A stretch of DNA of 59,521 bases, taken from an uncultured Lachnospiraceae bacterium (GTDB taxonomy: Bacteria > Bacillota > Clostridia > Christensenellales > UBA1242). The notes beneath the pieces were generated by a model. That model saw only the letters and a program-made list of their open reading frames with translations, had not been told where the DNA came from and did no database searches. The translations under genes and the position numbers were made by a program. Shown here piece after piece: positions 39,501 through 59,521 of this stretch; the stretch's first letter is position 1, and every line of letters begins with the position of its first letter. The DNA is taken from NCBI GenBank assembly GCA_964457935.1, contig CAYWFC010000002.1:1-59521 (forward strand). Direction: 5' to 3'.

Positions 39501-39914
39501 TATATTGAAGCCAGTCTTTAGGCATGCGTAAATGTCTGAATAGTCACAAAAAATATTCAGCGCGTGAGTAGCCACAGTACGCGCGGACACATATATGACG
39601 CAAGGCAATAATTCGCCCGCTATCTTGTACATATTGGGTAGCATGAGCAGTAGCCCTTGGCTAGACGTAAACGTGGTCGCCGTAGCACCGCTACACAGCG
39701 CCCCATGCAATGCCCCTGCCACTCCAGCCTCAGACTGCATCTGGTGCACTCTCAGCGGAGTACCGAAGATATTTAGCCTGCCGGCAGACGAATACTCGTC
39801 GCACAGCTCAGCCATAGTGGATGACGGCGTGATAGGGTAGATAAACGCCATTTCGTTGAACATGTAGGCAATGTTGGCAGCAGCCGTATTGCCGTCTATA
39901 CATACTTTTCTCAT
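36501..39914 (-). CDS. nifJ: pyruvate:ferredoxin (flavodoxin) oxidoreductase
   Basis: 1137 aa. Two ferredoxin motifs CIQCGRCAIVCP and CTGCGVCSEVCP. ThDP region GGDGWAFDIGYGG. Confidence 0.95.
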   Translation of the reverse strand: MRKVCIDGNTAAANIAYMFNEMAFIYPITPSSTMAELCDEYSSAGRLNIFGTPLRVHQMQSEAGVAGALHGALCSGATATTFTSSQGLLLMLPNMYKIAGELLPCVIYVSARTVATHALNIFCDYSDIYACLKTGFNIVNCASVQEVNDLAIACHLASYRNSTPFICFFDGFRTSHELNTIEQTELADLAEVVDFDAIQSYKSRQMSPATPYAKGTNQNADVFFQNRVASLGYYQRTLADIKDAFATVATLTGRHYDTVEYYGSPDAENVVVCMGTAVDSLKRVVGADGILQIRVLKPFDEQTFLAKLPRTARRITVIERNLDTNGTDTLFGYVATTLAKNHIDADLYSGCYGLGGKEFTPDMARAVFDNMSHDQKRFFTVGIDDDLCDTSLPVREEYTHDFDFSARVYGLGNDGSVSASKSTIKILGEVPDHYTQGYFEYDSKKSGSLTISHLRYDSQPIDCPYVDRSVDLLQCNHFNFLLKYDLLRNIKPNGILLVNTHFDADELDAHLPNFVKNAINAKHLSVYAIDASGIARAHGLKNKINNVMQLAMFCVSGVVDYDFAYSHMVTNITKMFASKGDSVVQSNITALDDVRDSIRRIDTDAFTQTSDRRYPASADEYVGKIINPIAHLAGGELPTSAFTPDGHMPVGTTKYEKRGIADQLPQWLPEHCIQCGRCAIVCPHSAIRPVLFHPDGDTPAQFASKKHHLSDYQYRLQISPMDCTGCGVCSEVCPAKTKALQMCPFDEIGETERANYDYSNTLHHDYRPNVTNTVSMQFRQPYFEFSGACAGCGETPYLKLLSQLYGDRLMIANATGCSSIYGGTYPTCPYTKDEDGFGVAWANSLFEDNAEFGYGIAMTKKALRANFIARLQTMSFDASIQPMIDSFLADTENHEQNRQIYLHLRAILDAKAQTDDERYLSENLSHIISPTVWIVGGDGWAFDIGYGGLDHVLASGENINILVLDTEVYSNTGGQTSKSTPRGASAKFNVSGKANKKKDLLSLAMTYRNVYVAQVVLGANPDQAVKAFTEAERYDGVSIIVAYSPCINHGYDMRLSQTHAKDSVQCGYNTLFRYDPSLDEPLQIDSATPTKSFEDFVLSENRFKITAKSHPELISLSQLDATMRNLSLHNKKDEKRD

Positions 39915-46007: not shown

Positions 46008-46151
46008 AATATTTTCTCCTTTATTTGATATGAATATGATAGCACATCTGGTGACTAAATGCAAGTATTTTTTGATATATTCCGAAATGAATGATTTTCA
46101 CACAAAAGGGTGCCAATCTATATAATAATGGTAGAGACACAGGAGTATGAT

Positions 46152-47198
46152 ATGAAGTGCAAATGTAATAAACTTAGACAGCCTAGACCTTATGAGAAGG
46201 TGAAATACGGTCCCATGGGAGCAAGGGGTGCTACCGGTCTGACTGGTCCGACTGGCGCGACAGGCGCTACTGGCGCAACGGGTGCGACGGGACCTACAGG
46301 CGCTACTGGTGTCACTGGTCCTACTGGAGAGGAGATAGCCATAGAGCGTGTGACTACCATAGAGCCGGGTCAGCCAGCGGATGTGAAGTCTAGGAGAGAG
46401 AATAATACTAATTATCTAGAGTTTTTTATACCACGAGGGGCGGACGGACTGTCTGAGAAGATAGTGATAGGCAATATCACCACAGTGGAGTCAAATGAAC
46501 AAGCCACTGTGACGGACAGGTATGACAATGCCACCCACACCATGGACTTTGCTCTGCCTAGGGGAGAGAAAGGCGACAAGGGCGACACGGGACCGAGAGG
46601 ATTCCCCGGGGAGATAGGTATCAGCGAAGTGATCACTATAGACGGCACTGAGACGGTGGAGCCGGATGAGCCAGCCGAGGTGCAAGACGACTTCGATAGG
46701 AATATACATCACTTGACATTTTATATACCGAAAGGGGTAAAAGGAGATAAAGGCGAACGAGGCGAAAAGGGTGAACAAGGCGATGACGGACCACCGGGGC
46801 TGACACCTGACTTTAACGCCACGATATACAATCCTAACGACCAGATGCTAGTCAATCAGACTGCGCTCACTATGGGCGAAGTGGAACTAAATAATGGCTT
46901 CAAGATACAAGACAGTAGTCTGATAGTGCCTACTACAGGGACATTCTTGGTGTCGTTCTCGGTGAATTATTCTGACACAGCGACCAATGGCGACTATGTC
47001 GGCATAGCAGTCAATGATGTGCTGGTGACTTCGTCCAAAAGACCTGTGTGCCAAAATGGCAACTCGAGCGCTACATTCGCGACCTTGCTGAATAAAGATG
47101 ATAAAGTCAATCTGGTAGCTAATGTGTCACAAAACAAAACTCTAAAGTCTGACACAGCCCCTAGCGCCATGCTGTCAGTAATGATGATAGCGTACTAA
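46152..47198 (+). CDS. collagen-like protein with three interleaved beta modules and C1q/BclA-like C-terminal domain
   Basis: ATG 46152 after [42 protein letters not shown], then three modules ending ...F(F/A/Y)(I/L)P(R/K)G followed by G-x-y runs ([41 protein letters not shown]). Confidence 0.75.
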
Positions 47199-50538: not shown

Positions 50539-51198
50539 TTACTTATCTGTCCAATATTTGCGGACTTTTTCGAAATGCGTAATACGCTTTTCGATTTTAC
50601 TTATCTCTTTTGGGTAGAAAAAATTCAGTTTTTCACATAGTTTTAACATCCATTCTTTACGAGATTGATTGCTATCTATGTTAATTATTCGAGAATTAGT
50701 GATTTGGATTTGACCCCAACCTAATGCGCCGATAGAGAGACAATCCCATTTCAGATGTTCGATAGGGATTAGACGCACCGCATCGAATGACATTTTATTA
50801 TCTATTACTTTATATTCTGCTAGTAGTATTACAAAATAATTCTTATCATTTTTATAGAATTTGGACAATTTTTCTACAGAAGTCAAATTTGGCATGTTAA
50901 ACTTAGTGTCACGATTGTGGGTTTTAATATCGATGGCGAAATAATTGTCATCATTATCCATAAAAGATATATCTTCAAGCGCTCTGCGACCGAAATTGGC
51001 ATCGAAGTTTTTGGCCAATCCGGAAGGGAAACAAGTATGTATTTTTTCTTCTAGAATATTTTGCGTAATATCTCCGACTGCACGCGGATGAGTGAAAATG
51101 CGTTCATTTTCGAAATCGGGAATAGAATTTAATAAATTTAGTATATTATTTTCAATAATTTTTTGTATATTTTCTTCAAATATTTTGGGTTTATTCAC
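50539..51198 (-). CDS. Type II restriction endonuclease candidate (PD-(D/E)xK-like), specificity unknown
   Basis: Immediately downstream of the methyltransferase. GTG 51198 is preceded by AGGAG plus 7 nt and overlaps the MTase stop by 8 nt. Candidate catalytic LEDISF...FAIDIKTH (D-x13-D-x-K). The ORF-track long form to 51357 would overlap the MTase by 167 nt. Confidence 0.55.
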   Translation of the reverse strand: MNKPKIFEENIQKIIENNILNLLNSIPDFENERIFTHPRAVGDITQNILEEKIHTCFPSGLAKNFDANFGRRALEDISFMDNDDNYFAIDIKTHNRDTKFNMPNLTSVEKLSKFYKNDKNYFVILLAEYKVIDNKMSFDAVRLIPIEHLKWDCLSIGALGWGQIQITNSRIINIDSNQSRKEWMLKLCEKLNFFYPKEISKIEKRITHFEKVRKYWTDK

Positions 51199-52135
51199 CT
51201 TTTTTCTCCTTTTTCTGCTCGGATAAGGAATTTCTCTCCCAAAAAACGCCATTTGTATAACCTTGTATTGTTTTGTCATAATCGGCTCGTTCCAATCTAT
51301 ATTCTGCCCATGCGCAATACAGAGGATTTTGCTCAATGCCAATGTAATGACGACCAAGTTTTTTGGCTACGACAGATGTGGTGCCCGAGCCAAGGAATGG
51401 GTCTAAGATTACGTCACCTGCATTGCTACTGGCTAATATTATTTTGGCTAGTAATTTTTCTGGCTTTTGGGTAGGGTGTGCGGTGTTTTCAGGCATGGAC
51501 CAGTACGGTATAGAGATGTCATCCCAAAAGTTAGATGGATAAGTATTGCGATAGTTGCCATTATCAGTCTCTTCCCAATCTTTTGGTTTGCCATCGATTT
51601 TGTATGGTGCAATGACTTTGCGTCGACATTTTACGCTATCTACATTGAAAGTGTAGTTTTTTGATACAGTCGCAAACCAAATATCCTCCATGGCGTTTTT
51701 CCAATTTGTCAAAGCACCGCGACCTTTTTCTCTCTGCCATGTGATGCGATTGACTACATTGAAATATTGATTTAGAACACTGCCTATCAGCAAACTAGAC
51801 TGCCAATCGCAACAGACATATATAGATGCAGTGGGCTTTAGTAACGGAATGACTTTTTTTATCCAATTTTCGGTGTATTTAACATAATCTGTTTCGTTTA
51901 ATTTTGAAAATTTCATTCCATGAAAGTTTTTGTCTAGGTTGTAGCAAGGGTCAGCAATAATTAAGTCGACACTCTTGGCAGGCAAATAATTTAACACTTG
52001 CATAGAATCACCGAGTATTGTTTTATCCAACAACGGCTCAATGGGACTCGCAGTGTCTAATGTAATACATTTGTCAGCATATTTTTTTCCTTCTTTGAGA
52101 GAAAAATCAATAGTTTTGTTTTTAGGGGACTTCAT
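51191..52135 (-). CDS. beta-class DNA methyltransferase (N6-adenine or N4-cytosine)
   Basis: Motif IV-like IIADPCYNL near the N-terminus, HPTQKPEKLL, and motif I DPFLGSGTT near the C-terminus. This order is the beta-class permutation. Confidence 0.85.
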   Translation of the reverse strand: MKSPKNKTIDFSLKEGKKYADKCITLDTASPIEPLLDKTILGDSMQVLNYLPAKSVDLIIADPCYNLDKNFHGMKFSKLNETDYVKYTENWIKKVIPLLKPTASIYVCCDWQSSLLIGSVLNQYFNVVNRITWQREKGRGALTNWKNAMEDIWFATVSKNYTFNVDSVKCRRKVIAPYKIDGKPKDWEETDNGNYRNTYPSNFWDDISIPYWSMPENTAHPTQKPEKLLAKIILASSNAGDVILDPFLGSGTTSVVAKKLGRHYIGIEQNPLYCAWAEYRLERADYDKTIQGYTNGVFWERNSLSEQKKEKKGE

Positions 52136-52269: not shown

Positions 52270-52653
52270 TTATAAATTACGCATTTCTTCAAAAAGATTA
52301 TGTTGAAACGAAGACATTATATAATAATCTTCTATTAAAGAGTTGTCTTGGCTGATACCCAATGCCACAAGAATATAAGGATATACAGTGTATGACATAT
52401 ATTGGTCAATACTACCCAAACTAGATGGAATGCATTTACAATTTTTATTCAAAACATCTGTATCGTTTATCAGGTAATATTTGATATTTTTAATATCATC
52501 ATCAATACAATTTTCCATTAGTTCTGAATTTAATAAATCAGAGTCAGATTCTTGCCCTGTCAATAACAAAGCAAATTTTTTCCTGTCAATCTCTTTTGCT
52601 TTGTATTTTGTCAGCAAAACACTTATAAATTTATTCGCATCAATTTTATCCAT
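52270..52653 (-). CDS. hypothetical protein (127 aa)
   Basis: AT-rich island ORF. RBS GGAG (from TAGGAGTTTC) a few nt upstream of ATG 52653. No motif recognised. Confidence 0.5.
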   Translation of the reverse strand: MDKIDANKFISVLLTKYKAKEIDRKKFALLLTGQESDSDLLNSELMENCIDDDIKNIKYYLINDTDVLNKNCKCIPSSLGSIDQYMSYTVYPYILVALGISQDNSLIEDYYIMSSFQHNLFEEMRNL

Positions 52654-52662
52654 ATGAAACTC

Positions 52663-52923
52663 CTACGCGACAGGACAACAATAAAATGCAAGGGCATTTG
52701 TAATGATTGTTTCAAACTTTATTGAAATCGCACTAGAACCATAATTTATACCTATATCTTCAGTCTCTGCCGTCATTTCAACGACTGAATCTTTTGAAAT
52801 ACTAAAAATACCATCAGCCGTGGATGACACAGTGGTTAAAAAATAAATGTTAAATCCAAGACTTGCCATACTAACAATTATTGTAAATGAAAATAAAATA
52901 GTGAGAATAAGTATCTTTTTCAT
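52663..52923 (-). CDS. small signal-anchored protein (86 aa), leaderless candidate
   Basis: MKKILILTILFSFTIIVSMASLGF. On the minus strand TTGACA(52962-52957)-16 nt-TATAAT(52940-52935) ends 11 nt before the ATG. No SD. Confidence 0.45.
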   Translation of the reverse strand: MKKILILTILFSFTIIVSMASLGFNIYFLTTVSSTADGIFSISKDSVVEMTAETEDIGINYGSSAISIKFETIITNALAFYCCPVA

Positions 52924-53075: not shown

Positions 53076-53318
53076 TTAATCTAAATTTAACTCATCACTT
53101 TCAAAAATAGGGTTATCAAAAAATTCGGAAACAGTTATTCCCAATGTTCTAATGATAATAATCAAAGTTTTTACATTACAACTTTCTCTTCTTGCATTCA
53201 TAATATCCATCATAGTTGCGTGTGAAATTCCAGAGTTTATTTCTAATCTATATTGAGTAATATTTTTTTCTTTTAATAATTCTCGTATTCTCATTGATAT
53301 TGCTTTGCTTACTTTCAT
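53076..53318 (-). CDS. XRE-family HTH regulator (80 aa), divergent from the nucleotide cassette
   Basis: MRIRELLKEKNITQYRLEINSGISHATMMDI...IRTLGITVSEFF. RBS GGGAG. Paralog of 1079-1321. Confidence 0.8.
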   Translation of the reverse strand: MKVSKAISMRIRELLKEKNITQYRLEINSGISHATMMDIMNARRESCNVKTLIIIIRTLGITVSEFFDNPIFESDELNLD

Positions 53319-53363
53319 AACAATTCTCCCAATAAGTATATTTTAGCATACTGTCGGTTTTGC

Positions 53364-53437
53364 AATAAGTATGCAAATGCGACAATTTTCTTGATTTTAT
53401 TATTTTCTTTTGATATAATAAGTATGCAAAAACGACA
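53364..53437 (+). promoter_or_regulatory. promoter of the SLOG gene flanked and overlapped by two 21-nt direct-repeat operators
   Basis: AATAAGTATGCAAATGCGACA (53364-53384) and AATAAGTATGCAAAAACGACA (53417-53437). TTGATT (53391-53396)-17 nt-TATAAT (53414-53419). A degenerate third half-site AATAAGTATA lies at 53331-53340. Confidence 0.65.
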
Positions 53438-53452
53438 TAAGGGATATTTGAT

Positions 53453-54007
53453 ATGATTTTTAGAAAGAAAATACAAGAATTGAAAATAGATTGTGAAACG
53501 GGGTTTGAAATATTGAAAAATACAACTCTTTGTTTTACTGGTCATCGCATTCAGAAACTTCCTTGGGGAGAAAATGAAGAAGATGAGAGATGTGTTGGGA
53601 TGAAAAAGAAATTGAAAGCAAAGATTATTGAAGCAATTAAAAAAGGCTACATTTATTTCATTTCAGGTATGGCACTAGGTTTTGATATAATCTCTGCCGA
53701 AATGATATTAGAGTTAAAAAAGGAATATCCACATATTAAACTAATTGGTGCTATTCCGTGTAAAGACCAATATAAAGTTTGGAAATCATATCAAATTAAA
53801 CGATATAAGAATGTTTTGTCTAAATGTGATAGCGTTCGGTGCTTGTATGACACTTATAACGACAAGTGTATGCTTGAACGAAACGACTATATGTTAAATA
53901 ATTCATCACTTGTGATTGCATTATACGATGGTAAGGGTGGTGGAACTGGCTATACAATTAAAAAAGCAAAAGAGAAAAGTCTGAAAGTTGAAATAATTAA
54001 ACCTTAG
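53453..54007 (+). CDS. SLOG-superfamily protein of the YpsA/DUF1273 type
   Basis: CFTGHR..., ISGMALGFDIISAE, IPCKDQYKVW, ERNDYMLNNSSLVIALYDGKGGGTGYTI match the DUF1273 pattern (GHR / G-x-A-x-G-x-D / RN..M / GGT). Confidence 0.7.
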   Translation: MIFRKKIQELKIDCETGFEILKNTTLCFTGHRIQKLPWGENEEDERCVGMKKKLKAKIIEAIKKGYIYFISGMALGFDIISAEMILELKKEYPHIKLIGAIPCKDQYKVWKSYQIKRYKNVLSKCDSVRCLYDTYNDKCMLERNDYMLNNSSLVIALYDGKGGGTGYTIKKAKEKSLKVEIIKP

Positions 54008-54093
54008 ACTAGGATAAATAAATTTCAAAAATTTGTTTGTGCATTTATTTGAGATATACATAAGGCTATTTGATATAAGGCTGTCCCCATATA

Positions 54094-54122
54094 TTGATGT
54101 TTTGATCATTTTGTGTTATAAT
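54094..54122 (+). promoter_or_regulatory. internal promoter ahead of the Gmk-like gene
   Basis: TTGATG (54094-54099)-17 nt-TATAAT (54117-54122) with TGT immediately upstream of the -10. Confidence 0.55.
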
Positions 54123-54154
54123 ATGTAAAATCGATGATTTAAAGGAGATATAAT

Positions 54155-54763
54155 ATGAATATTCCAATTATTATTTCTGGACCAAGTGGCGTGGGAAAGG
54201 ATACTTTAGTAAAATCAATAACAAGTACTTATCCTGAAATAAAGGAAGCAGTTGGTTATACAACAAGAAAACCAAGAGAGAACGAGGTAGATGGCGTTGA
54301 CCTAAACTTTGTGTCCAAAGATTATTTTCGATACTTGATTGACCATGACATGTTGATAGAATACGCGATTTTTAATAATGAATTTTATGGTATGCCAAAG
54401 ACAGAATTGACTAAATTAAAAGATCAAAAAATGATATACAATATTGGGGTGTCTGGTGCAAGGACAATTAAAGAGTTAATCCCCGAGTCAATTGCTATTT
54501 TGTTGATTCCCCCATCTTATGATGAATTGGTATATCGTTTGGGAAATAGGGGGAAAGAAAGATTAAAAAACATGGCATCAGATTTAAAAGAGGCATCAAG
54601 CTTTTTCGACTATTGTTTAGTGTCGAAAATGGACAAGGTTGGTGAACTTGTTGAAAATTTTAAAGATATTTTATGTGGACATGGTGAAGAATATAGGATT
54701 GAAAATTATTTTAATCAAATTAAAGATATAACACATATCGATGAAAATGAACGTGTGATGTAA
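54155..54763 (+). CDS. guanylate kinase-family P-loop kinase (accessory copy, atypical P-loop GKDT)
   Basis: IIISGPSGVGKDTL, GYTTRKPRENEVDGVDLNFVS, EYAIFNNEFYGMPK, LLIPPSYDELVYRLGNRG align with Gmk blocks. RBS AAAGGAGA. Own promoter at 54094-54122. Confidence 0.75.
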   Translation: MNIPIIISGPSGVGKDTLVKSITSTYPEIKEAVGYTTRKPRENEVDGVDLNFVSKDYFRYLIDHDMLIEYAIFNNEFYGMPKTELTKLKDQKMIYNIGVSGARTIKELIPESIAILLIPPSYDELVYRLGNRGKERLKNMASDLKEASSFFDYCLVSKMDKVGELVENFKDILCGHGEEYRIENYFNQIKDITHIDENERVM

Positions 54764-54788
54764 AATAAAAATATTTAGCGAGGAAAAG

Positions 54789-55727
54789 ATGAGATTGATT
54801 AAAGTTGATTTTAAAGATGTGAATTTGATTCAATCTATTAACAATTTTTTAAATTTAATATCTAGCGTTGATGTTAAGCAAACACCGGAATGGTTTATAG
54901 CTAGAGAAGAATGTGGATTTGCTATTTGCTTTGCAGAAGATAAAGGAATTATTGGCTATTGCAATGTGTTTATTAATGAGAATGAGGCTTATTTGCCGAG
55001 AGGTCCGGTCACAGTCGCTAATATGTTTGATGTGTGTTTAGATTCTTTATGTGATTATATAAAAAGTTTAGGATATTCTAAAATGCGATTAAATCCTAAA
55101 ATACAAGAAAAGTTAAAAACTGATAGAAATATTAATTGTTGTGATAAAAACGATTTTAGTAAGTTGAGAGAATCGTATAGAGAAGCTATTGTAGAATTAA
55201 AAAACAAATCGGAAAATGATTTGTTGTATGAGTTTAGCAGTTCTACAAGATATCATATTAGAAAAGCTTTAAACAATAATTTGATTATCAATCTAAGTGA
55301 AATTTGTGATTTAGATGATTTTTATTCAATTTATGAAGAAACTGCAATACGTCATAATTTTATACCACATAATAAACAATATTTTGAAAATCTGATAAAG
55401 GCTTTTAAAGAGAAAATATATTTTTGTAAAATAAGTTATAACAACGAAGTTGTTGCAATGAGTTTGAATATTTTACAAGGTGATACTGTTCATTACTTGT
55501 ATGGTGCGAGTTCATCTCAAAACAACAAACTTTATGCAGCGTACTTAATGCATTGGGTAATGATTAAGTATGCACTCAACAATGGTTTTAAATTTTATAA
55601 TTTTGGGGGTGTTTTTGCGAAAGATAATGAGGTTGATAGCAAGGATTACGGTTTATTACGATTTAAATCGGGATTTTGCAAAGGTGGCTTTATTGAATAT
55701 GAGCCTGATATGATTATTTTACTATAG
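54789..55727 (+). CDS. FemAB/FemX-family aminoacyl-tRNA-dependent aminoacyltransferase-like protein (312 aa, no coiled-coil insert)
   Basis: TRYHIRKALNNNLIIN...DDFYSIYEETAIRHNFIPHNKQYFENL and HYLYGASSSQNNKLYAAYLMHWVMIKYALNNGFKFYNFGGV...YGLLRFKSGF match FemAB-family (PF02388-type) blocks as I remember them. Confidence 0.65.
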   Translation: MRLIKVDFKDVNLIQSINNFLNLISSVDVKQTPEWFIAREECGFAICFAEDKGIIGYCNVFINENEAYLPRGPVTVANMFDVCLDSLCDYIKSLGYSKMRLNPKIQEKLKTDRNINCCDKNDFSKLRESYREAIVELKNKSENDLLYEFSSSTRYHIRKALNNNLIINLSEICDLDDFYSIYEETAIRHNFIPHNKQYFENLIKAFKEKIYFCKISYNNEVVAMSLNILQGDTVHYLYGASSSQNNKLYAAYLMHWVMIKYALNNGFKFYNFGGVFAKDNEVDSKDYGLLRFKSGFCKGGFIEYEPDMIILL

Positions 55728-55736
55728 GAGAAAGTT

Positions 55737-56279
55737 ATGAAAAATATATGTTTGTTAAATGAAAGATTAAAATCAAAAAATGGAGTTGTAAAATTTACAT
55801 ATGATAAATATTGGGATGCTATTAATGCTATATGCGAGGATATAAAGGAGAAAATAAAAACCGGAGAATATAAAGATATAGCATTGGTCGGTATGGCTAG
55901 GGGAGCATTGCCGATGTTGGTGTCTGTTTCTCATGAAATTGGCGTAAGGAAAGTGTCAATGATACAACTGCAGATGAGCAATTCCGATAACCCACATGAT
56001 TATGGAAAAGTGAAACTAATAAATAAATTTATTGATAAAGATGTTAAAAAATGTATTCTTCTTGAAGATATTATATACAAAGGACAAACTACTGGAGAGG
56101 CTATTAAAATACTAAAAGCTGAGGGGATTAAGGTGGAAAGCATATATTCGTTAATAGTGGATGAAGGATATGGCAAAATAGACAACAAACCAATAGATGT
56201 TGATATAAATTATGCATATTCGCTGAAAGCAGATGAGTGGGTAAACTTTTTGTGGGAAAAAGATTTAAGAAAGGAGTAG
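55737..56279 (+). CDS. type I phosphoribosyltransferase, Gpt (xanthine-guanine PRT)-like
   Basis: IALVGMARGALPMLVSVSHEIGVRKVSMIQLQ (cf Gpt [30 protein letters not shown]). PRPP loop KCILLEDIIYKGQTT. C-terminal DEWVNFLWEKD (cf Gpt TWIEQPWD). Confidence 0.65.
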   Translation: MKNICLLNERLKSKNGVVKFTYDKYWDAINAICEDIKEKIKTGEYKDIALVGMARGALPMLVSVSHEIGVRKVSMIQLQMSNSDNPHDYGKVKLINKFIDKDVKKCILLEDIIYKGQTTGEAIKILKAEGIKVESIYSLIVDEGYGKIDNKPIDVDINYAYSLKADEWVNFLWEKDLRKE

Positions 56280-56281
56280 AA

Positions 56282-57112
56282 ATGAAACAAAGTGGTTATA
56301 ATTTGTTATTTGAATTAACACAAAGATGTAATTTAAATTGTGAATATTGTTTCTATAGAGATTATGGACGTAGTCCATCGGAATTAAACTTTGGTCAATT
56401 TCAAGGAATTATTGACAAATATGAAAACATAAAAAATATTTATTTTACTGGTGGTGAATGCACTCTAGCTACTGATTTTGTTAGTATAATACGATTGGCA
56501 AAGATGCGTGCTAATGTTGCGATTTTTACTAATGGGTTAACAATTACAAATGATGAGTTTTATAATGATATAGATGAATATATCGATAACTATATTGTTA
56601 CATTTGATAATTTTAGCAGTGATTATAAATGTAGGTTGAATACAGATTCAACTATGGAAACGATTAAAAAAATCGCAAAGAACTCCCCAAATAAGTTGAT
56701 TGTTAAGATTTGTATCAATAAATACAATCTATCAAATTTAGAATTAACGATACAAGAATTAATTGCACTGGGAGTAAAAAAGATTTCAATTAATTTTGTG
56801 CATAACATTCAATCGAATAACATAAATTTTGAGTTGAGTAAAAATGAGTTGGAAGAAGTTTTTCACACTTTGGATAAGTATAAAAGTCATCTCTTTATTA
56901 ACTTTTATGATATGATAAAAAATTTTTATCTTAATGGAGATCGTTCTGTGGAAAGATATTGTCGTGCTGGGAAGTCCTTTTATTATTATGATTGCCAAGC
57001 GAACAAGAAGGATTGCCCCGCAGAATATTGTGAAGATAGGAACTGTTTAACAAAAGAATGTATTAGTATATTTGAAATGTTTGAGGAGAATGATGATGAA
57101 TATAGTGTTTGA
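56282..57112 (+). CDS. radical SAM enzyme with C-terminal Cys-rich twitch/SPASM-like extension
   Basis: ATG 56282 after AAGGAG. CNLNCEYC (CX3CX2C), FTGGECTL (GGE SAM motif). Tail CRAGKSFYYYDCQANKKDCPAEYCEDRNCLTKEC begins with the C-x-A-G signature of SPASM/twitch domains. Confidence 0.8.
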   Translation: MKQSGYNLLFELTQRCNLNCEYCFYRDYGRSPSELNFGQFQGIIDKYENIKNIYFTGGECTLATDFVSIIRLAKMRANVAIFTNGLTITNDEFYNDIDEYIDNYIVTFDNFSSDYKCRLNTDSTMETIKKIAKNSPNKLIVKICINKYNLSNLELTIQELIALGVKKISINFVHNIQSNNINFELSKNELEEVFHTLDKYKSHLFINFYDMIKNFYLNGDRSVERYCRAGKSFYYYDCQANKKDCPAEYCEDRNCLTKECISIFEMFEENDDEYSV

Positions 57113-57737
57113 AGGGATAAATGGTGCCGGTAAAACCACTATTATTAAAAAATTAGTGGAAATAATGAAAGATGCTGGTTTAAATGTTTATCAAATAGAT
57201 GAAATTAATGAGATGTCTCCCTTAAGTTCAGTATTATCAGAAATGTATAAGACCGATACATTTTTAAGAATGAAAAAAAGTTTTAACACAGTAATTACTG
57301 AATCCTTAATTCTTGCTGCAGATTATCATTTTTTACAAGAAGCCACAAAAAATTTACAAGGTTACAAAATATTCGATAGAGATATAATTACTCAAATTGT
57401 TTATCAAAAGTATTTTTTGGCTTCACTTTATGGAGATAATAATAGTTTTTTTGAGAATTGGGAAAAGTGCATAAAATTCAATATGAAAAAAATAGACTTG
57501 ATTGTGTATATTGATGTGCCAGATGAAGTTGGCTTGGAAAGAACGATACAAAGAGATGGTGCAACCTTTTATGAATCAGATATAAAAATTATGAGGGAAT
57601 TGCATAAATTGCAAAAACAATACGCCATAAAGTTTTGTGAAGAAAATTCTATTCCACTTATATTAATTGATGGAACAAAAAGAATAGATAAAAATGCGGA
57701 TTTCTTATATTCAAAAATAAAGGGAATAGAGTGTTAA
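57096..57737 (+). CDS. thymidylate kinase-family (dTMP/CMPK2-like) nucleotide kinase
   Basis: NIVFEGINGAGKTT P-loop, LILAADYHF, IFDRDIITQIVYQ (DR motif), DLIVYIDVPDEVGLERT lid region. GAGGAG RBS 57083-57088. Overlaps the radical SAM stop by 17 nt (start could be 57090, 57093 or 57096). Confidence 0.75.
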   Translation: MNIVFEGINGAGKTTIIKKLVEIMKDAGLNVYQIDEINEMSPLSSVLSEMYKTDTFLRMKKSFNTVITESLILAADYHFLQEATKNLQGYKIFDRDIITQIVYQKYFLASLYGDNNSFFENWEKCIKFNMKKIDLIVYIDVPDEVGLERTIQRDGATFYESDIKIMRELHKLQKQYAIKFCEENSIPLILIDGTKRIDKNADFLYSKIKGIEC

Positions 57738-57740
57738 ACT

Positions 57741-58212
57741 ATGATTTATATTGATTTTGATGGTGTGTTTGTTGACACATGGCCGTTGATATGTAGTATT
57801 ACAAAGAAGTTAATAATAGTGATCTAATAGAAGAGGAAAAACTGAAAAATTCATTTGCAGAACTTGATTGGGAGTTTGTATTGAATAACAGTTATCAGAA
57901 TAAACAAAACATTCAAATTTTGCAAAACTTAAGCGACGATGTTATTTCTAGTAAGATAAAAATATTAACAAAAGTAAATTCAAAAGAAGAAAAAAACAAA
58001 AGGAATTATTTCTAAAGAACAATAATATAAAAATAAAAATGTTCGCTGAGACTTTTGAGAGATTTAGGGCAGATGCAGTCGATCCTATGAATAACATTTT
58101 AATAGATGATGAAATAAAGAATTTAGATGAGTGGGAAAAGAAGGGCGGAAAGCCTATTTTATATAATAAAAATGATAATAATCGCGACTCTGCTGGGGGT
58201 GTAATATTTTAA
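57741..58212 (+). pseudogene. HAD-superfamily phosphatase (NT5C-like 5'(3')-deoxyribonucleotidase type) interrupted by two frameshifts
   Basis: Frame 1: MIYIDFDGVFVDTW (DxDG motif I), stop at 57825. Reading continues in another frame (YKEVNNSDLIEEEKLKNSFAELDW...ILTKVNSKEEK). After an A7 run (57990-57996) it continues in a third frame (...NNILIDDEIKNLDEWEKKGGKPILY, motif IV), stop at 58210-58212. Confidence 0.6.
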
Positions 58213-58262
58213 GTATAAAACAATACCAAGCTTGTCTGATAAAATTTTAAGGTAAAAAACTT

Positions 58263-58291
58263 TTGACATAAAATAGTTCTTGTGTTATACT
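58263..58291 (+). promoter_or_regulatory. promoter ahead of the Ham1-Nudix genes
   Basis: TTGACA (58263-58268)-17 nt-TATACT (58286-58291), TGT upstream of the -10. Confidence 0.6.
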
Positions 58292-58310
58292 AAACTTAGT
58301 GGAGGAGAGT

Positions 58311-58871
58311 ATGAAAGATTTAATTTATGTGACAGGAAACAAATATAAGATTTTTACTGCGAGGAAATTTTTAGAACCATATGGTATTAATGTGATAGGT
58401 AAAAAGATTTATTGTCCAGAAATACAAGAGGATTCAATTGAAGAGGTCGCTAAGTTTTCCGCTGAATATGCCAGCAAAGCATTGGGGTGTGCTGTTTTAA
58501 AAAATGATATGGGTTTAGTTATTCCAGCATTAAATGGATTTCCTTCTGCCTATACTCATTATGTTGAAGATACTCTTGGTGAGGATGGTATTTTAAAATT
58601 GATGGAAGGGGAAAAGAATAGAGAGGCTTATTTTTTGGAATGTTTGGCTTATGCCGAACCGGGCAAAGAAACAAAGATCTTTATTTCTAAAACAGAAGGT
58701 ACACTTGATTTTGAAAAAAGCGGAGATTATGGATGGAGTTGGGATAGAATTTTTATTCCTAAAGGACAAACTTCTACTATGGCAAATTTTAATGACGATG
58801 AGAGAGCTTCGTTTTGGTCTGAGGATGGGTACATTGATTTAAAAAATTTTATTATGCATGAAGATAAATGA
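58311..58871 (+). CDS. Ham1/RdgB (ITPase)-family non-canonical NTP pyrophosphatase-like protein
   Basis: ATG 58311 after GGAGGAG. IYVTGNKYK, PEIQEDSIEE, NDMGLVIPALNGFPSAY, REAYFLECLAY, WSWDRIFIP align with RdgB/Ham1 blocks (TGN.gK, EiqE, DDsGL.v.aLnG.PG, R.A.f, GYDPIF). Confidence 0.7.
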   Translation: MKDLIYVTGNKYKIFTARKFLEPYGINVIGKKIYCPEIQEDSIEEVAKFSAEYASKALGCAVLKNDMGLVIPALNGFPSAYTHYVEDTLGEDGILKLMEGEKNREAYFLECLAYAEPGKETKIFISKTEGTLDFEKSGDYGWSWDRIFIPKGQTSTMANFNDDERASFWSEDGYIDLKNFIMHEDK

Positions 58872-58890
58872 AATAATGAGGTGGGAAAGA

Positions 58891-59439
58891 ATGTTTAATT
58901 TGGTTAACGAGTTAAAAACTTATAAGGCTTTTGATAAAGAAGAAGAGTGTGATAGGCTGAAAACGCTTGAATTCCTGTCACAACAAACGAATTGTTTTTC
59001 TAGATCTAATTTACTGGGACATGTAAATGCTGGTGGACTTGTAGTAGATGGCTATGGAAATATCCTATTGAATCATCATAAAGTTTTAGATATGTGGTTT
59101 CAATTTGGTGGACATAGTGATGGGAATGAGAATTCTCTTGAGGTCGCCAAAAGAGAAATCGAAGAAGAGTCTGGTATTAAAGACATTAATTTGCTGACGA
59201 ATGGCATTTTTGATGTTAGTGTTAATTTGATTGATAATAATGAAAAAAAACACGAACCAGAGCATTATCACTATGATATTAATTTTTTGTTTAAAATATC
59301 AAGGAAGAATTTCATTGTATCTTCAGAATCTAAGGAATTAAAGTGGGTATCAATCGATGAAGCTTTAAAATTAATTAATTCCGATGATAAAAGCATGAGA
59401 AGGATGATTGAAAAATATAAAAAGATGTTAAATCTCTAA
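58891..59439 (+). CDS. Nudix hydrolase
   Basis: Complete Nudix box GGHSDGNENSLEVAKREIEEESGI (GX5EX7REUXEEXGU). ATG 58891 after GAGGTGGG. Confidence 0.85.
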   Translation: MFNLVNELKTYKAFDKEEECDRLKTLEFLSQQTNCFSRSNLLGHVNAGGLVVDGYGNILLNHHKVLDMWFQFGGHSDGNENSLEVAKREIEEESGIKDINLLTNGIFDVSVNLIDNNEKKHEPEHYHYDINFLFKISRKNFIVSSESKELKWVSIDEALKLINSDDKSMRRMIEKYKKMLNL

Positions 59440-59470
59440 TGAATTAACCATATTCTTAATAGAGGTAAAA

Positions 59471-59521
59471 ATGGAAACATTGAAAGCAGGGTGTTTTTTA
59501 GTAAACACAGAAACAAAAAGT
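59471..59521 (+). CDS. 5' end of a further gene (METLKAGCFLVNTETKS...), possibly a second Nudix-type protein
   Basis: ATG 59471 after AGAGGTAAAA. Open to the window end. The N-terminus resembles the first beta strand of Nudix proteins, but 17 aa is too short to call. Confidence 0.3.
   Translation, partial: METLKAGCFLVNTETKS

What the first reader, a model, noticed from the sequence alone, without database searches (positions are those of the whole stretch)
53076..59521. XRE-gated cassette of nine nucleotide-handling enzymes: candidate undescribed modified/aminoacylated-nucleotide system
Seen: a divergent XRE gene and a promoter bracketed by duplicated operators precede co-directional, tightly packed genes.
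- Spacing: FemAB-like to PRT 9 nt, PRT to radical SAM 2 nt, radical SAM and Tmk-like overlap by 17 nt, Tmk-like to HAD 3 nt, Ham1 to Nudix 19 nt.
- Gene order: YpsA/DUF1273 SLOG protein, guanylate-kinase-like kinase, FemAB/FemX-like aminoacyl-tRNA transferase, Gpt-like purine PRTase, CX3CX2C radical SAM with twitch/SPASM-like Cys tail, thymidylate-kinase-family kinase, HAD nucleotidase (frameshifted), Ham1/ITPase-like pyrophosphatase, Nudix hydrolase, then another gene running off the window.

Established: every one of these families acts on free nucleotides or nucleotide-linked substrates. None sits here in its usual housekeeping context.

Inference: together they read like an assembly line. 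Base goes to NMP (PRT), then to NDP/NTP (two kinases), then radical modification, then amino-acid addition (FemAB-like). Ham1, Nudix and HAD trim or detoxify the product, and the SLOG protein may release or sense a base.

Three non-exclusive hypotheses:
(a) Antiviral nucleotide-analogue synthesis, analogous to viperin plus CMPK2 or pVip plus kinase.
(b) An aminoacyl-nucleoside natural product, with puromycin-like logic (NTP modification, Nudix, phosphatase, aminoacylation).
(c) DNA or nucleotide-pool hypermodification, analogous to phage thymidine hypermodification (kinase plus amino-acid transferase plus radical SAM). The adjacent R-M system fits this.

I do not recall any described system with this gene set.
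Basis: partly seen in the sequence, partly recalled or inferred. Interest (0 to 1): 0.85.

Follow-up and report, generated by a model that had tools for sequence, protein, structure and literature searches.

The report
Rare operon building a modified nucleotide
A horizontally acquired, rarely seen bacterial operon couples a purine-type phosphoribosyltransferase, a new radical-SAM enzyme, nucleotide kinases, a tRNA-dependent amino-acid transferase and nucleotide hydrolases. It most likely makes an unknown modified nucleotide, possibly for phage defence.

Summary
All nine family assignments, the gene spacings, the decayed HAD gene and the duplicated operators check out, on a 28-30% GC island in a ~42% GC contig.

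GK-like, FemAB-like, PRT, rSAM and Tmk-like genes, plus Ham1, Nudix and HAD-like genes where the contig reaches them, recur in the nine other contigs (seven distinct loci) found through close rSAM homologues (50-90% identity). A more distant variant at 42% keeps five of the families.

The universal core is PRT + rSAM + Tmk-like kinase. PRT and rSAM are fused in some genomes. Sibling variants replace FemAB/Ham1/GK with a nucleotide-sugar aminotransferase, with or without a formyltransferase.

The rSAM belongs to a rare family of about 115 clusters, with four conserved C-terminal cysteines. It is not a viperin and not an Ophion homologue.

XRE and YpsA are not part of the conserved system. The cassette has its own conserved promoter.

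Best reading: a self-contained pathway running base to NMP, radical modification, NDP/NTP, then aminoacylation, with trimming hydrolases. Defence-island neighbours recur (R-M, Zorya II, a GmrSD-like enzyme). Four relatives carry a queuosine-precursor transporter, which hints at a 7-deazaguanine-type base. Product and role remain inferred. I found no published description.

The parts
54094..54122 (+). Promoter-like site of the synthesis block (TTGATG-17-TATAAT with an extended -10 TG)
   Evidence: Found by the consensus scan. It is conserved upstream of the GK-like gene in L001 and L054, which lack XRE and YpsA.
54155..54763 (+). Divergent guanylate-kinase-like NMP kinase
   Evidence: Pfam Guanylate_kin E 2e-27. 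TIGR03263 scores 134 bits, below the 160 cut-off. Against yeast GK (1GKY), R38, R41, E69 and Y78 are kept. S34G, Y50L/M/I, S80M, D98N and D100G hold across the family; the four fixed replacements are invariant columns, position 50 varies (L/M/I). Present in all 9 loci of the FemAB clade.
54789..55727 (+). FemAB/FemX-like aminoacyl-tRNA-dependent transferase, divergent and without a coiled-coil insert
   Evidence: Pfam FemAB 118.7 bits. The FemX equivalog scores only 80 bits against a cut-off of 500. Best solved relatives are FemX and FmhB. The RGP, TRYxIR, YLYGxS, FGG and FK(293) motifs are invariant in 10 orthologues.
55737..56279 (+). Type I purine-type phosphoribosyltransferase (HPRT/Gpt-like)
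   Evidence: Pfam Pribosyltran. A family profile hits solved HPRTs and purine PRTs best, at E 4e-6. Present in every variant, at 38-96% identity. Fused N-terminally to the rSAM in P0319, P0322 and P0324.
56282..57112 (+). Radical SAM enzyme of a rare family, with a C-terminal auxiliary-cluster cysteine motif
   Evidence: Has CX3CX2C. In a 115-member alignment C16, C20, C23, C245 and C260 are invariant, C255 is in 114/115 and C227 in 109/115. Only 17 clusters at 50% identity reach E<1e-30 among 1.84 billion representatives. The AlphaFold2 model has pLDDT 89. Foldseek neighbours are CteB, viperins, BlsE, anSME and MoaA at TM about 0.6-0.7.
57096..57737 (+). Thymidylate-kinase/dNK-like P-loop kinase
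   Evidence: Pfam Thymidylate_kin E 2e-12 and dNK E 2e-9. TIGR00041 scores 54 bits, below the 83 cut-off. Present in every variant.
57741..58255 (+). HAD-like phosphatase pseudogene (motif I DFDGV retained)
   Evidence: tblastn with the intact L001 orthologue gives pieces in three frames plus an in-frame stop. Intact orthologues occur in L001, L055, L056 and L058. The gene is split in L002. Pfam HAD_2 and NT5C hits are weak.
58263..58291 (+). Promoter-like site of the hydrolase block (TTGACA-17-TATACT with TG)
   Evidence: Consensus scan, 11 of 12 positions matched.
58311..58871 (+). Ham1/ITPase-like NTP pyrophosphatase
   Evidence: Pfam Ham1p_like E 3e-30. TIGR00042 scores 124 bits, below the 145 cut-off. 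Among the best-conserved components, with the PRT (Ham1 64-87% and PRT 56-94% between clades). Absent from the DegT variants.
58891..59439 (+). Nudix hydrolase (an alternative start lies at 58876)
   Evidence: Pfam NUDIX E 2e-9. A Nudix gene is present in L001, L002, L056-L058 and L202.
59471..59521 (+). Start of a further gene, probably a second Nudix, cut by the contig end
   Evidence: Sequence read directly. The homologous ORF in L001 (7951-8106) reads ...YSFPEGH..., which is Nudix-like. Only 17 codons lie in the window.
53076..53318 (-). XRE repressor-like gene (a neighbour, not part of the conserved system)
   Evidence: HTH_26 E 5e-8. No homologue in any related locus.
53364..53437 (+). 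Two 21-nt direct repeats (candidate operators) bracketing the ypsA promoter-like site at 53391-53419
   Evidence: The motif is absent from the GK and Ham1 promoter regions.
53453..54007 (+). YpsA/SLOG protein (a neighbour, not conserved with the system)
   Evidence: Pfam YpsA E 9.5e-27. Only its last ~70 nt survive in L001, where DNA homology to the window begins at 53938. It is absent elsewhere.

Best explanation
The block 54094-59521 is one copy of a rare, horizontally mobile operon. It encodes a self-contained pathway for an unusual purine-type nucleotide.

**Proposed steps**
1. The HPRT/Gpt-like PRT joins a free base to PRPP to give an NMP. In four relatives a queuosine-precursor (7-deazaguanine) transporter sits inside the operon, so the base may be an imported 7-deazaguanine-type purine.
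2. The radical SAM enzyme modifies this nucleotide. It is fused to the PRT in some genomes and carries an auxiliary Fe-S site. The modification is probably on the sugar. Sibling operons pair the same rSAM, PRT and kinase with a nucleotide-sugar aminotransferase, with or without a formyltransferase.
3. The divergent GK-like and Tmk-like kinases raise the product to the NDP/NTP level. A distant variant carries an NDK-like protein in place of the GK-like kinase.
4. The FemX-like enzyme transfers an amino acid from aminoacyl-tRNA onto the product.
5. The Ham1-like, Nudix and HAD-like hydrolases sit behind their own promoter-like site here. They either trim the product to its final phosphorylation state or keep it, or its unmodified by-products, from poisoning the host.

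**Likely role.** The most likely role is intracellular production of a toxic or antiviral nucleotide analogue, that is, phage defence.

**Shown**
- The family assignments.
- Conserved co-occurrence and gene order.
- The PRT-rSAM fusion.
- Altered GMP-pocket residues in the GK-like kinase.
- The conserved auxiliary cysteines.
- The defence-gene neighbours.

**Inferred**
- The order of steps.
- The substrate base.
- The radical chemistry.
- The aminoacyl acceptor.
- The biological role.
For: **Conserved synteny**
- Synteny holds in L001-L005 and L054-L058 (rSAM 50-90% identical to the window) and in the more distant L059/L060 at 42%.
- PRT, rSAM and Tmk-like genes are orthologous across all four variants.

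**Functional coupling**
- Rosetta-stone PRT-rSAM fusions of 447 aa exist.
- The cassette promoter is conserved in relatives that lack XRE and YpsA.

**Components are specialised, not housekeeping**
- All components score below the curated housekeeping cut-offs.
- The island is 28% GC in a 42% GC contig.
- The GK-like kinase keeps the phosphate and N1 contacts of yeast GK but replaces S34, Y50, S80 and D100 throughout the family.

**Substrate hints**
- A queuosine-precursor transporter lies inside the operon in L002 and L056-L058 and passes TIGR00697 (172-174 bits against a cut-off of 51).
- The PRT profile is closest to 6-oxopurine PRTs.
- The distant variant carries an NDK-like protein.
- DegT aminotransferase and formyltransferase siblings exist.

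**Defence context**
- Type II R-M lies upstream in the window.
- A complete Zorya II and a WYL protein lie directly upstream in L200, and a GmrSD/NsnA-like enzyme lies in L059.
- A PtuA/GajA-like ATPase and a protease lie in L002.

**Precedent**
- Ophion, a validated defence system made of rSAM + PRTase + phosphatase.
Against: - No product, substrate or phenotype is known.
- Five relatives use LysR-type regulators, which are typical of metabolite-responsive operons rather than defence.
- L004 is chromosomal near gidB-parAB, and L202 has no defence neighbours. The defence-context sample is small: 4 of about 6 informative contexts.
- The FemAB variant has no aminotransferase, so the amine (or hydroxyl) acceptor for aminoacylation is unexplained.
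- A synthesis pathway co-encoded with three enzymes that would degrade its NTP product is not self-evidently logical.
- The window copy lacks the transporter and has a dead HAD gene. It may be decaying.
- No PADLOC model other than weak pVip (55 bits) and VakA (37 bits) hits matches.
Confidence: 0.45

Rival explanations
1. The operon is a biosynthetic gene cluster for a secreted aminoacyl- or peptidyl-nucleoside antibiotic. This would follow puromycin, blasticidin or tubercidin logic: nucleotide scaffold, radical or oxidative sugar modification, acylation, then Nudix and phosphatase trimming to the nucleoside. The product would be used in interbacterial competition.
For: - PRT + Nudix (+ HAD) trimming matches the tubercidin pathway, where TubE is a CDG:PRPP PRT and TubG a Nudix hydrolase (PMC6112128).
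- Sibling variants carry a DegT-type aminotransferase and a formyltransferase.
- BlsE, the blasticidin S rSAM, is among the best structural matches at TMq 0.69.
- LysR regulators are common.
Against: - No exporter or self-resistance target gene is conserved in any locus. The only transporter belongs to an import family.
- The operons are tiny, 6-8 kb.
- They occur in low-GC anaerobe or metagenome lineages and often sit among defence genes.
- Kinases that push towards the NTP level are unnecessary for a nucleoside end-product.
Confidence: 0.2
2. The operon is a salvage and conversion pathway for a scavenged 7-deazaguanine or other non-canonical purine, for the cell's own use. The product might be a modified RNA or DNA precursor, or a cofactor-like nucleotide. 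A LysR regulator that senses the base would control it.
For: - A QPTR/YhhQ-family transporter lies inside four operons. This is the known preQ0/preQ1/queuine importer family (PMC11130926).
- LysR regulators are present.
- L004 has a chromosomal location.
- QueH lies near the L202 variant.
Against: - Known queuosine salvage inserts the free base with TGT and needs no PRT or kinases. No TGT, DpdA, QueK, Qng1 or QueL homologue occurs in any locus.
- The window copy has no transporter.
- The distribution is patchy and island-borne (28% GC in a 42% GC host).
- No preQ1 or other riboswitch was found.
Confidence: 0.15
3. The rSAM is a prokaryotic viperin and the cassette is a pVip-plus-kinase defence system with accessory genes. 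The product would be a ddhNTP chain terminator.
For: - PADLOC pVip models hit at E 2e-15 (55 bits), and the Tmk-like kinase hits VakA at E 1e-9.
- Viperins are among the top structural neighbours, at TM about 0.6.
Against: - The curated viperin model NF038283 scores 37.9 bits against a cut-off of 180. Unrelated rSAM models score higher, for example the tungsten-cofactor maturase at 80 bits.
- The family has four conserved C-terminal cysteines, implying an auxiliary cluster. I recall that viperins have none.
- The invariable partners PRT and FemAB or DegT are not viperin partners.
Confidence: 0.05
4. The cassette is an ordinary prophage or mobile-element nucleotide-metabolism or pool-sanitation module, or a DNA-hypermodification module. 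The rSAM and FemAB genes would be incidental.
For: - PHROG families exist for the GK, Tmk, Nudix and PRT components.
- The island is low-GC and sits next to an R-M system.
- L001 and L054 have small mobile-element-like genes upstream.
Against: - rSAM and FemAB lie in the middle of the operon with 2-17 nt junctions and are conserved with it.
- No phage structural or replication genes occur in any of the 12 loci.
- The PRT has no tblastn match in 50,697 phage or 72,556 plasmid records.
- Three family-specific motif scans of IMG/VR gave only chance hits.
- No DNA-acting enzyme (glycosylase, TGT/DpdA, DNA kinase or polymerase) is present.
Confidence: 0.05

Closest known systems
Ophion (OpnA rSAM + OpnB PHP phosphatase + OpnC PRTase), an anti-jumbo-phage system of Gammaproteobacteria (bioRxiv 10.1101/2025.09.30.679545)
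   Same: - It combines a non-viperin radical SAM enzyme with a phosphoribosyltransferase and a phosphohydrolase.
- It is proposed to make a transcription-blocking nucleotide.
- It is found in defence hotspots.
   Different: - There is no detectable orthology. OphA matches our rSAM profile only over the 84-column N-terminal cluster region. OphC is unrelated to our PRT, with hhalign probability 0.3%.
- According to the authors, Ophion's PRTase belongs to the retron/ShosT/PsyrT clade. Our PRT hits no PADLOC model and resembles HPRT/Gpt.
- Ophion has no kinases, FemAB, Ham1 or Nudix.
Prokaryotic viperins with associated NMP kinases (pVip + kinase; eukaryotic viperin + CMPK2)
   Same: - A radical SAM enzyme sits next to Tmk/CMK-like kinases that supply NTP substrate.
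- The PADLOC pVip and VakA models give weak hits.
- The core fold is similar.
   Different: - It fails the curated viperin HMM.
- It has a conserved auxiliary-cluster cysteine motif.
- It is obligatorily linked, and sometimes fused, to a PRT, and linked to an acyl- or amino-transfer enzyme.
7-Deazapurine nucleoside pathways (tubercidin TubE/TubG; toyocamycin ToyH/ToyI)
   Same: - A PRT builds the nucleotide from a 7-deazaguanine base and PRPP.
- Nudix and phosphatase enzymes then trim it (PMC6112128). The ToyH/ToyI details are from memory.
- A 7-deazaguanine importer family lies inside four related operons.
   Different: - None of the de novo preQ0 genes FolE, QueD, QueE or QueC is present.
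- No reductase or adenylosuccinate-type enzymes are present.
- The rSAM is not QueE. The PHROG QueE-like hit is only E 6e-4.
- Kinases and FemAB have no counterpart in these pathways.
Aminonucleoside and peptidyl-nucleoside logic (puromycin Pur10/Pur4/Pur7/Pur3/Pur6; blasticidin S BlsE/BlsH). Recalled from memory, not verified in the held library.
   Same: - The sequence is sugar oxidation or dehydration, then DegT-type transamination, then N-acylation with an amino acid, with Nudix and phosphatase trimming.
- The DegT/formyltransferase sibling variants (L200, L202) fit this pattern.
- BlsE is a top structural neighbour.
   Different: - The window's variant has no aminotransferase.
- Acylation would be aminoacyl-tRNA-dependent (FemX-like), not ATP-dependent.
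- The PRT and kinases are extra components.
FemX/FemABX cell-wall transferases and FemX-like natural-product transferases (PacB, VlmA; from memory)
   Same: - It is a member of Pfam FemAB.
- The conserved catalytic motifs include the FK lysine.
- Weissella FemX also uses a nucleotide-linked acceptor.
   Different: - It scores 80 bits against a 500-bit equivalog cut-off.
- The N-terminal acceptor-binding half is divergent.
- There is no cell-wall gene context.
- L004 carries a separate canonical FemX-like gene scoring 201 bits.

Membership tests
Prokaryotic viperin (pVip) | Scores above the curated viperin family model (NCBIfam NF038283, cut-off 180 bits) | tested here: not met
   It scores 37.9 bits. 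Other rSAM models score higher, up to 80 bits. PADLOC pVip models give only 54-55 bits.
Prokaryotic viperin (pVip) | A single [4Fe-4S] rSAM cluster with a C-terminal NTP-binding extension and no auxiliary cluster (from memory of viperin structures) | tested here: not met
   Four C-terminal cysteines are conserved in 109-115 of 115 family members.
Prokaryotic viperin (pVip) | Converts an NTP to a 3'-deoxy-3',4'-didehydro-NTP | not testable with these tools
   This needs an anaerobic enzyme assay.
Ophion | OpnA-type rSAM and OpnC-type PRTase orthologues plus a PHP phosphatase | tested here: not met
   OphA aligns only over the N-terminal 84 columns. OphC shows no relation. No PHP domain was found in any locus.
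FemAB family (PF02388) | Matches the Pfam model above the gathering score and keeps the conserved catalytic motifs | tested here: met
   It scores 118.7 bits against a cut-off of 24. The RGP, YLYGxS, FGG and FK motifs are invariant. Assignment of the lysine's catalytic role is from memory.
FemX cell-wall alanyltransferase (NF047883 equivalog) | Scores above the equivalog cut-off (500 bits) and sits in a peptidoglycan context | tested here: not met
   It scores 80 bits. No mur or cell-wall genes occur in any locus. L004 has a separate, better FemX-like gene at 201 bits.
Guanylate kinase (TIGR03263) | Above the equivalog cut-off and with an intact GMP-binding residue set (S34, R38, R41, Y50, E69, Y78, S80, D100 of yeast GK; residue roles from memory) | tested here: not met
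   It scores 134 bits against 160.45. S34G, Y50L/M/I, S80M and D100G hold across the family.
dTMP kinase (TIGR00041) | Above the equivalog cut-off (83.25 bits) | tested here: not met
   It scores 53.8 bits. Pfam Thymidylate_kin and dNK are both matched.
RdgB/HAM1 non-canonical purine NTP pyrophosphatase (TIGR00042) | Above the equivalog cut-off (145.35 bits) | tested here: not met
   It scores 124.5 bits. Pfam Ham1p_like is met at 105.8 bits. By eye the C-terminal SHR-type motif reads FWS; this reading is from memory of ITPase motifs.
SPASM/twitch RiPP maturase | A SPASM domain (PF13186; seven-cysteine motif) and a nearby precursor peptide | tested here: not met
   No PF13186 hit. Only four C-terminal cysteines are conserved. 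The operon junctions of 2-19 nt leave no room for a conserved small ORF. No dedicated precursor search was done.
Queuosine salvage / Dpd 7-deazaguanine DNA modification | A TGT/DpdA transglycosylase (plus QueK, Qng1, QueL or DpdB/C) | tested here: not met
   None occurs among the called genes of 12 loci. Only the QPTR transporter (TIGR00697, 172-174 bits) and one nearby QueH are present.
Phage thymidine hypermodification module | A phage genome context with a 5-hmdU DNA kinase, an amino-acid/pyrophosphorylase transferase and DNA-acting enzymes | tested here: not met
   No phage genes occur in the loci. The PRT has no match in phage records. IMG/VR motif scans gave only chance hits.
Puromycin-type aminonucleoside pathway | A 3'-oxidoreductase plus a DegT-type aminotransferase plus Nudix plus a phosphatase plus an aminoacyl ligase | tested here: inconclusive
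   The window has Nudix, a dead HAD gene and an aminoacyl transferase, but no aminotransferase. Sibling variants L200 and L202 do carry DegT-type aminotransferases.

The most novel reading that the evidence does not exclude
The operon makes a previously unknown class of metabolite: an aminoacylated, radical-SAM-modified (7-deaza)purine nucleotide. It would be built from a scavenged base by a PRT-rSAM pair and charged from aminoacyl-tRNA by a FemX-like enzyme. It would act as an intracellular antiviral or antimetabolite effector. The DegT/formyltransferase sibling operons would make amino- or formamido-sugar nucleotide analogues by the same core. Together they would define a new family of nucleotide-analogue immune or antibiotic systems in anaerobes.
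Probability: 0.25. Interest if true: 0.9.

Novelty: new variant of a known kind. Interest (0 to 1): 0.72.

Why it matters
If the inference holds, this is a third, independent lineage of radical-SAM nucleotide-analogue systems, after viperins and Ophion. It would be the first to recruit an aminoacyl-tRNA-dependent transferase.

That would add new antiviral or antibiotic nucleotide chemistry, such as chain terminators, aminoacyl-tRNA mimics or 7-deazapurine analogues. It would add a new radical SAM reaction on nucleotides. It would also link the exchange of queuosine precursors in anaerobic communities to conflict systems.

The modular core (PRT + rSAM + kinase) with swappable tailoring modules (FemAB/Ham1/GK, or DegT with or without a formyltransferase) is directly testable. 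A 6-kb operon can be expressed as a unit.

Tried and rejected
**Searches that found nothing useful**
- An exact-sequence look-up of the window's FemAB found nothing.
- Scans of genome contigs, metagenome contigs and viral contigs with rSAM alignments were swamped by generic CX3CX2C and GGE motifs. These scans therefore say nothing about taxonomic distribution.
- Three family-specific motif scans of IMG/VR gave only chance hits with no homologues.
- tblastn of the PRT against plasmid and phage records gave no match.
- Rfam searches found no riboswitch or other RNA element in the window cassette or in 12 related loci, only nearby tRNA genes of differing identity.
- Foldseek against PDB and viral structures placed the rSAM in the general SPASM/twitch/viperin neighbourhood without a specific assignment.
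- Cluster look-ups gave almost no organism names. The one exception is a Leptotrichiaceae MAG for a distant rSAM cluster.
- Literature searches for this gene combination found no description. The BlsE/BlsH paper is not in the held library.

**Ideas rejected**
- XRE gating of the whole cassette.
- YpsA as a system component.
- Viperin membership.
- Ophion orthology.
- RiPP maturase.
- Prophage module.
- Housekeeping salvage operon.

Full report
**1. Observation**

- Pfam confirms each family: XRE (HTH_26), YpsA/SLOG, Guanylate_kin, FemAB, Pribosyltran, Radical_SAM, Thymidylate_kin/dNK, Ham1p_like and NUDIX.
- A further gene starts at 59471 and runs off the end.
- The stated spacings are correct: 9 nt, 2 nt, a 17-nt overlap, 3 nt and 19 nt.
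- The HAD-like gene (57741-58255) is a pseudogene. Compared with the intact 171-aa orthologue in L001 it needs two frameshifts and has an in-frame stop.
- The duplicated operator is real. AGTATGCAAANNCGACA occurs exactly twice in 59.5 kb, at 53368-53384 and 53421-53437. The copies flank a TTGATT-17-TATAAT site.
- The region is a 26-34% GC island that begins at about 50450 with a type II R-M pair. The contig is otherwise about 43% GC.
- The window is an entire NCBI contig of 59,521 bp, so the cassette end is not available.

**2. Conservation**

A search with the rSAM found eight close homologues at 50-90% identity, all from metagenome assemblies. Every contig that carries one has the same operon.
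- The core order is GK-like, FemAB-like, PRT, rSAM, Tmk-like.
- Ham1-like, HAD-like and Nudix genes appear wherever the contig is long enough.
- A LysR regulator is usually present.
- In L002, L056, L057 and L058 a Vut_1 transporter sits inside the operon.

A member at 42% identity (L059/L060) keeps FemAB, rSAM, PRT, Ham1 and Tmk. It replaces the GK-like kinase with a 219-aa protein that resembles NDK. The Pfam NDK hit is only E 0.0055. The motifs KPSG...NYVHCPD were read by eye.

Still more distant members show two other arrangements.
- L200 has rSAM, Tmk, a DegT-type aminotransferase, PRT, a formyltransferase and a beta-CASP metallo-beta-lactamase.
- L202/L203 have rSAM, Nudix, PRT, Tmk and a DegT-type aminotransferase.
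- In both, PRT, Tmk and rSAM remain demonstrably orthologous at 37-44% identity.

The universal core is therefore PRT + rSAM + Tmk-like kinase. It carries two alternative tailoring modules: FemAB + Ham1 + GK/NDK-like, or DegT with or without a formyltransferase.

A profile search found three 447-aa proteins in which the PRT is fused to the N-terminus of the rSAM. This is the same order as the genes in the window. It is strong independent evidence that the two enzymes work together.

**3. What is not part of the system**

- L001 is 92.8% identical in DNA to the window from 53938 to the contig end. It keeps only the last ~70 nt of ypsA and has no XRE.
- No other relative has either gene.
- The promoter-like site upstream of the GK-like gene (54094-54122, extended -10) is conserved in L001 and L054.
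- The operator motif is absent from that site.
- A third promoter-like site precedes Ham1 (58263-58291).

'XRE-gated' is therefore not supported for the cassette. Read-through from ypsA cannot be excluded, because no terminator-like site was found.

**4. The components**

All components are divergent paralogues of their families and fall below the curated equivalog cut-offs.

| Component | Model | Score (bits) | Cut-off (bits) |
|---|---|---|---|
| GK-like | TIGR03263 | 134 | 160 |
| Tmk-like | TIGR00041 | 54 | 83 |
| Ham1-like | TIGR00042 | 124 | 145 |
| FemAB-like | NF047883 (FemX) | 80 | 500 |

*GK-like kinase.* Aligned to yeast guanylate kinase (1GKY), the family keeps R38, R41, E69 and Y78. 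It replaces S34 with G, Y50 with L/M/I, S80 with M, D98 with N and D100 with G; the S34G, S80M, D98N and D100G replacements are invariant columns of the family alignment. From memory of the GK-GMP structure, the replaced residues include contacts to guanine and phosphate. That implies a non-GMP substrate.

*PRT.* The PRT profile is closest to 6-oxopurine PRTs (HPRT at E 4e-6, and a Pyrococcus purine PRT). It ends in a W..F.WE motif.

*FemAB-like protein.* It keeps the conserved motifs, including the FK lysine. Its acceptor-binding N-terminal half is divergent. L004 encodes a separate, much more canonical FemX-like protein next door (201 bits).

*rSAM.*
- It belongs to a rare family. Only 17 clusters at 50% identity reach E<1e-30 among 1.84 billion representatives. 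About 115 clusters at 90% identity were found.
- In a 115-sequence alignment the CX3CX2C cysteines, C245 and C260 are invariant. C255 is in 114/115 and C227 in 109/115. This implies an auxiliary Fe-S site.
- A confident AlphaFold2 model (pLDDT 89) resembles CteB, viperins, BlsE, anSME, SuiB and MoaA at TM 0.6-0.7, without a specific match.
- It is not a viperin. NF038283 scores 38 bits against a cut-off of 180. Automated PADLOC-style annotation might nevertheless call it pVip at 55 bits.

*Transporters in the relatives.* They pass the curated 'queuosine precursor transporter' model at 172-174 bits against a cut-off of 51. That family imports preQ0, preQ1 and queuine (PMC11130926).

**5. Context**

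Known defence genes flank several copies.
- Window: a type II R-M pair.
- L200: a complete Zorya type II (ZorB2 E 4e-89, ZorA2, ZorE2) and a WYL protein immediately upstream.
- L059: a GmrSD/NsnA-like enzyme.
- L002: a PtuA/GajA-like ATPase and a trypsin-like protein.

Other contexts point away from defence or mobility.
- L004 is chromosomal near gidB-parAB, and L202 is not in a defence context.
- No phage genes, plasmid matches or IMG/VR matches were found.
- No riboswitch was found.

**6. Mechanism**

The best-supported reading is a self-contained route to an unusual purine-type nucleotide.
1. The PRT makes an NMP from a free base. The base is possibly an imported 7-deazaguanine-type purine.
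2. The rSAM, which is adjacent to or fused with the PRT, modifies it. The modification is probably on the sugar, given the nucleotide-sugar aminotransferase and formyltransferase partners in the sibling variants.
3. The GK-like or NDK-like kinase and the Tmk-like kinase phosphorylate the product.
4. The FemX-like enzyme adds an amino acid from aminoacyl-tRNA.
5. Ham1, Nudix and HAD trim the product or detoxify it.

What is shown is the coupling of the genes and their family-level chemistry. The order of steps, the substrate, the radical reaction, the acyl acceptor and the biological role are inferred.

An unresolved weakness is that the FemAB variant has no aminotransferase. The acceptor would then have to be an amine on the base, such as the aminomethyl group of preQ1, or a sugar hydroxyl.

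I estimate the probabilities as follows.

| Claim | Probability |
|---|---|
| The cassette is a dedicated nucleotide-modification pathway | ~0.75 |
| Role is phage defence | ~0.4 |
| Role is a secreted nucleoside antibiotic | ~0.2 |
| Role is salvage or conversion for the cell's own use | ~0.15 |

**7. Comparison with known systems**

- *Ophion.* The closest published analogue is the validated anti-jumbo-phage system Ophion (rSAM + PHP + PRTase). Using the sequences from its supplement, OphA shares only the N-terminal cluster region with our family. OphC is unrelated to our PRT. The resemblance is architectural, not orthologous.
- *Viperin plus kinase.* This is a second analogue, and the membership tests fail.
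- *Tubercidin and toyocamycin.* These pathways share the PRT-on-7-deazaguanine and Nudix/phosphatase logic (PMC6112128).
- *Puromycin and blasticidin.* This logic (from memory) fits the DegT siblings.
- No paper in the held library describes this gene set.

**8. Verdict**

The cassette is a new variant of the radical-SAM nucleotide-analogue kind of system. It has a distinctive, untested aminoacyl-tRNA-dependent step. I score interest at 0.72.

Noticed in passing
window 50539-52135 (- strand): A type II R-M pair opens the low-GC island. It consists of an N6_N4_Mtase methyltransferase (51191-52135) and an overlapping ~250-270-aa ORF with no Pfam hit, presumably the endonuclease. Two small unknown genes follow, at 52270-52653 and 52663-52923.
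   Followed up: partly
window 1-59521: The window is an entire NCBI contig of 59,521 bp; the exact PRT protein P0190 is recorded on a contig of that length. The host looks like an anaerobe: a PFOR gene lies at 36501-39914. It also carries a 2929-aa ORF (11385-20174) and a collagen-repeat protein (46110-47198).
   Followed up: partly
L004 13026-14099: A canonical FemX-like gene (NF047883, 201 bits) lies directly downstream of the system's Ham1 gene. The host therefore has its own cell-wall transferase, and the system's FemAB is a divergent paralogue.
   Followed up: partly
L200 120-3236 and 3794-4627: A complete Zorya type II (ZorB2, ZorA2, ZorE2) and a WYL-domain protein sit immediately upstream of the DegT-variant operon. 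That operon ends in a beta-CASP metallo-beta-lactamase (Cas14/aCPSF1-like), and an Hsp70/GrpE-like pair follows.
   Followed up: partly
L202 16088-16735 (- strand): A QueH (epoxyqueuosine reductase) gene lies about 3.4 kb from the DegT-variant operon. With the QPTR transporters inside four FemAB-variant operons, this is a second, weak pointer to 7-deazaguanine metabolism.
   Followed up: no
window 57741-58255; L002 1508-2028: The HAD-like phosphatase has decayed independently in two loci. It is frameshifted in the window and split into 61-aa and 112-aa ORFs in L002. This suggests it is dispensable or counter-selected.
   Followed up: partly
L001 7951-8106; window 59471-59521: The gene after the Nudix gene looks like a second Nudix (…YSFPEGH…). 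It appears truncated in L001, and its full form is unknown because both contigs end there.
   Followed up: no
L057 233-315; L004 3116-3334; L202 12756-12831: tRNA genes (Leu-CAA; Ser-TGA and Ser-GCT; Thr-GGT) lie near three loci. Their identities differ, so this more likely reflects island integration sites than a link to the FemAB step.
   Followed up: partly
P0332-P0402 (rSAM subfamily of ~282 aa): The most populous branch of the rSAM family has 45 clusters of 282 aa at 32-38% identity to the window, with a C-terminal KECANEWEMM motif.
   Followed up: no
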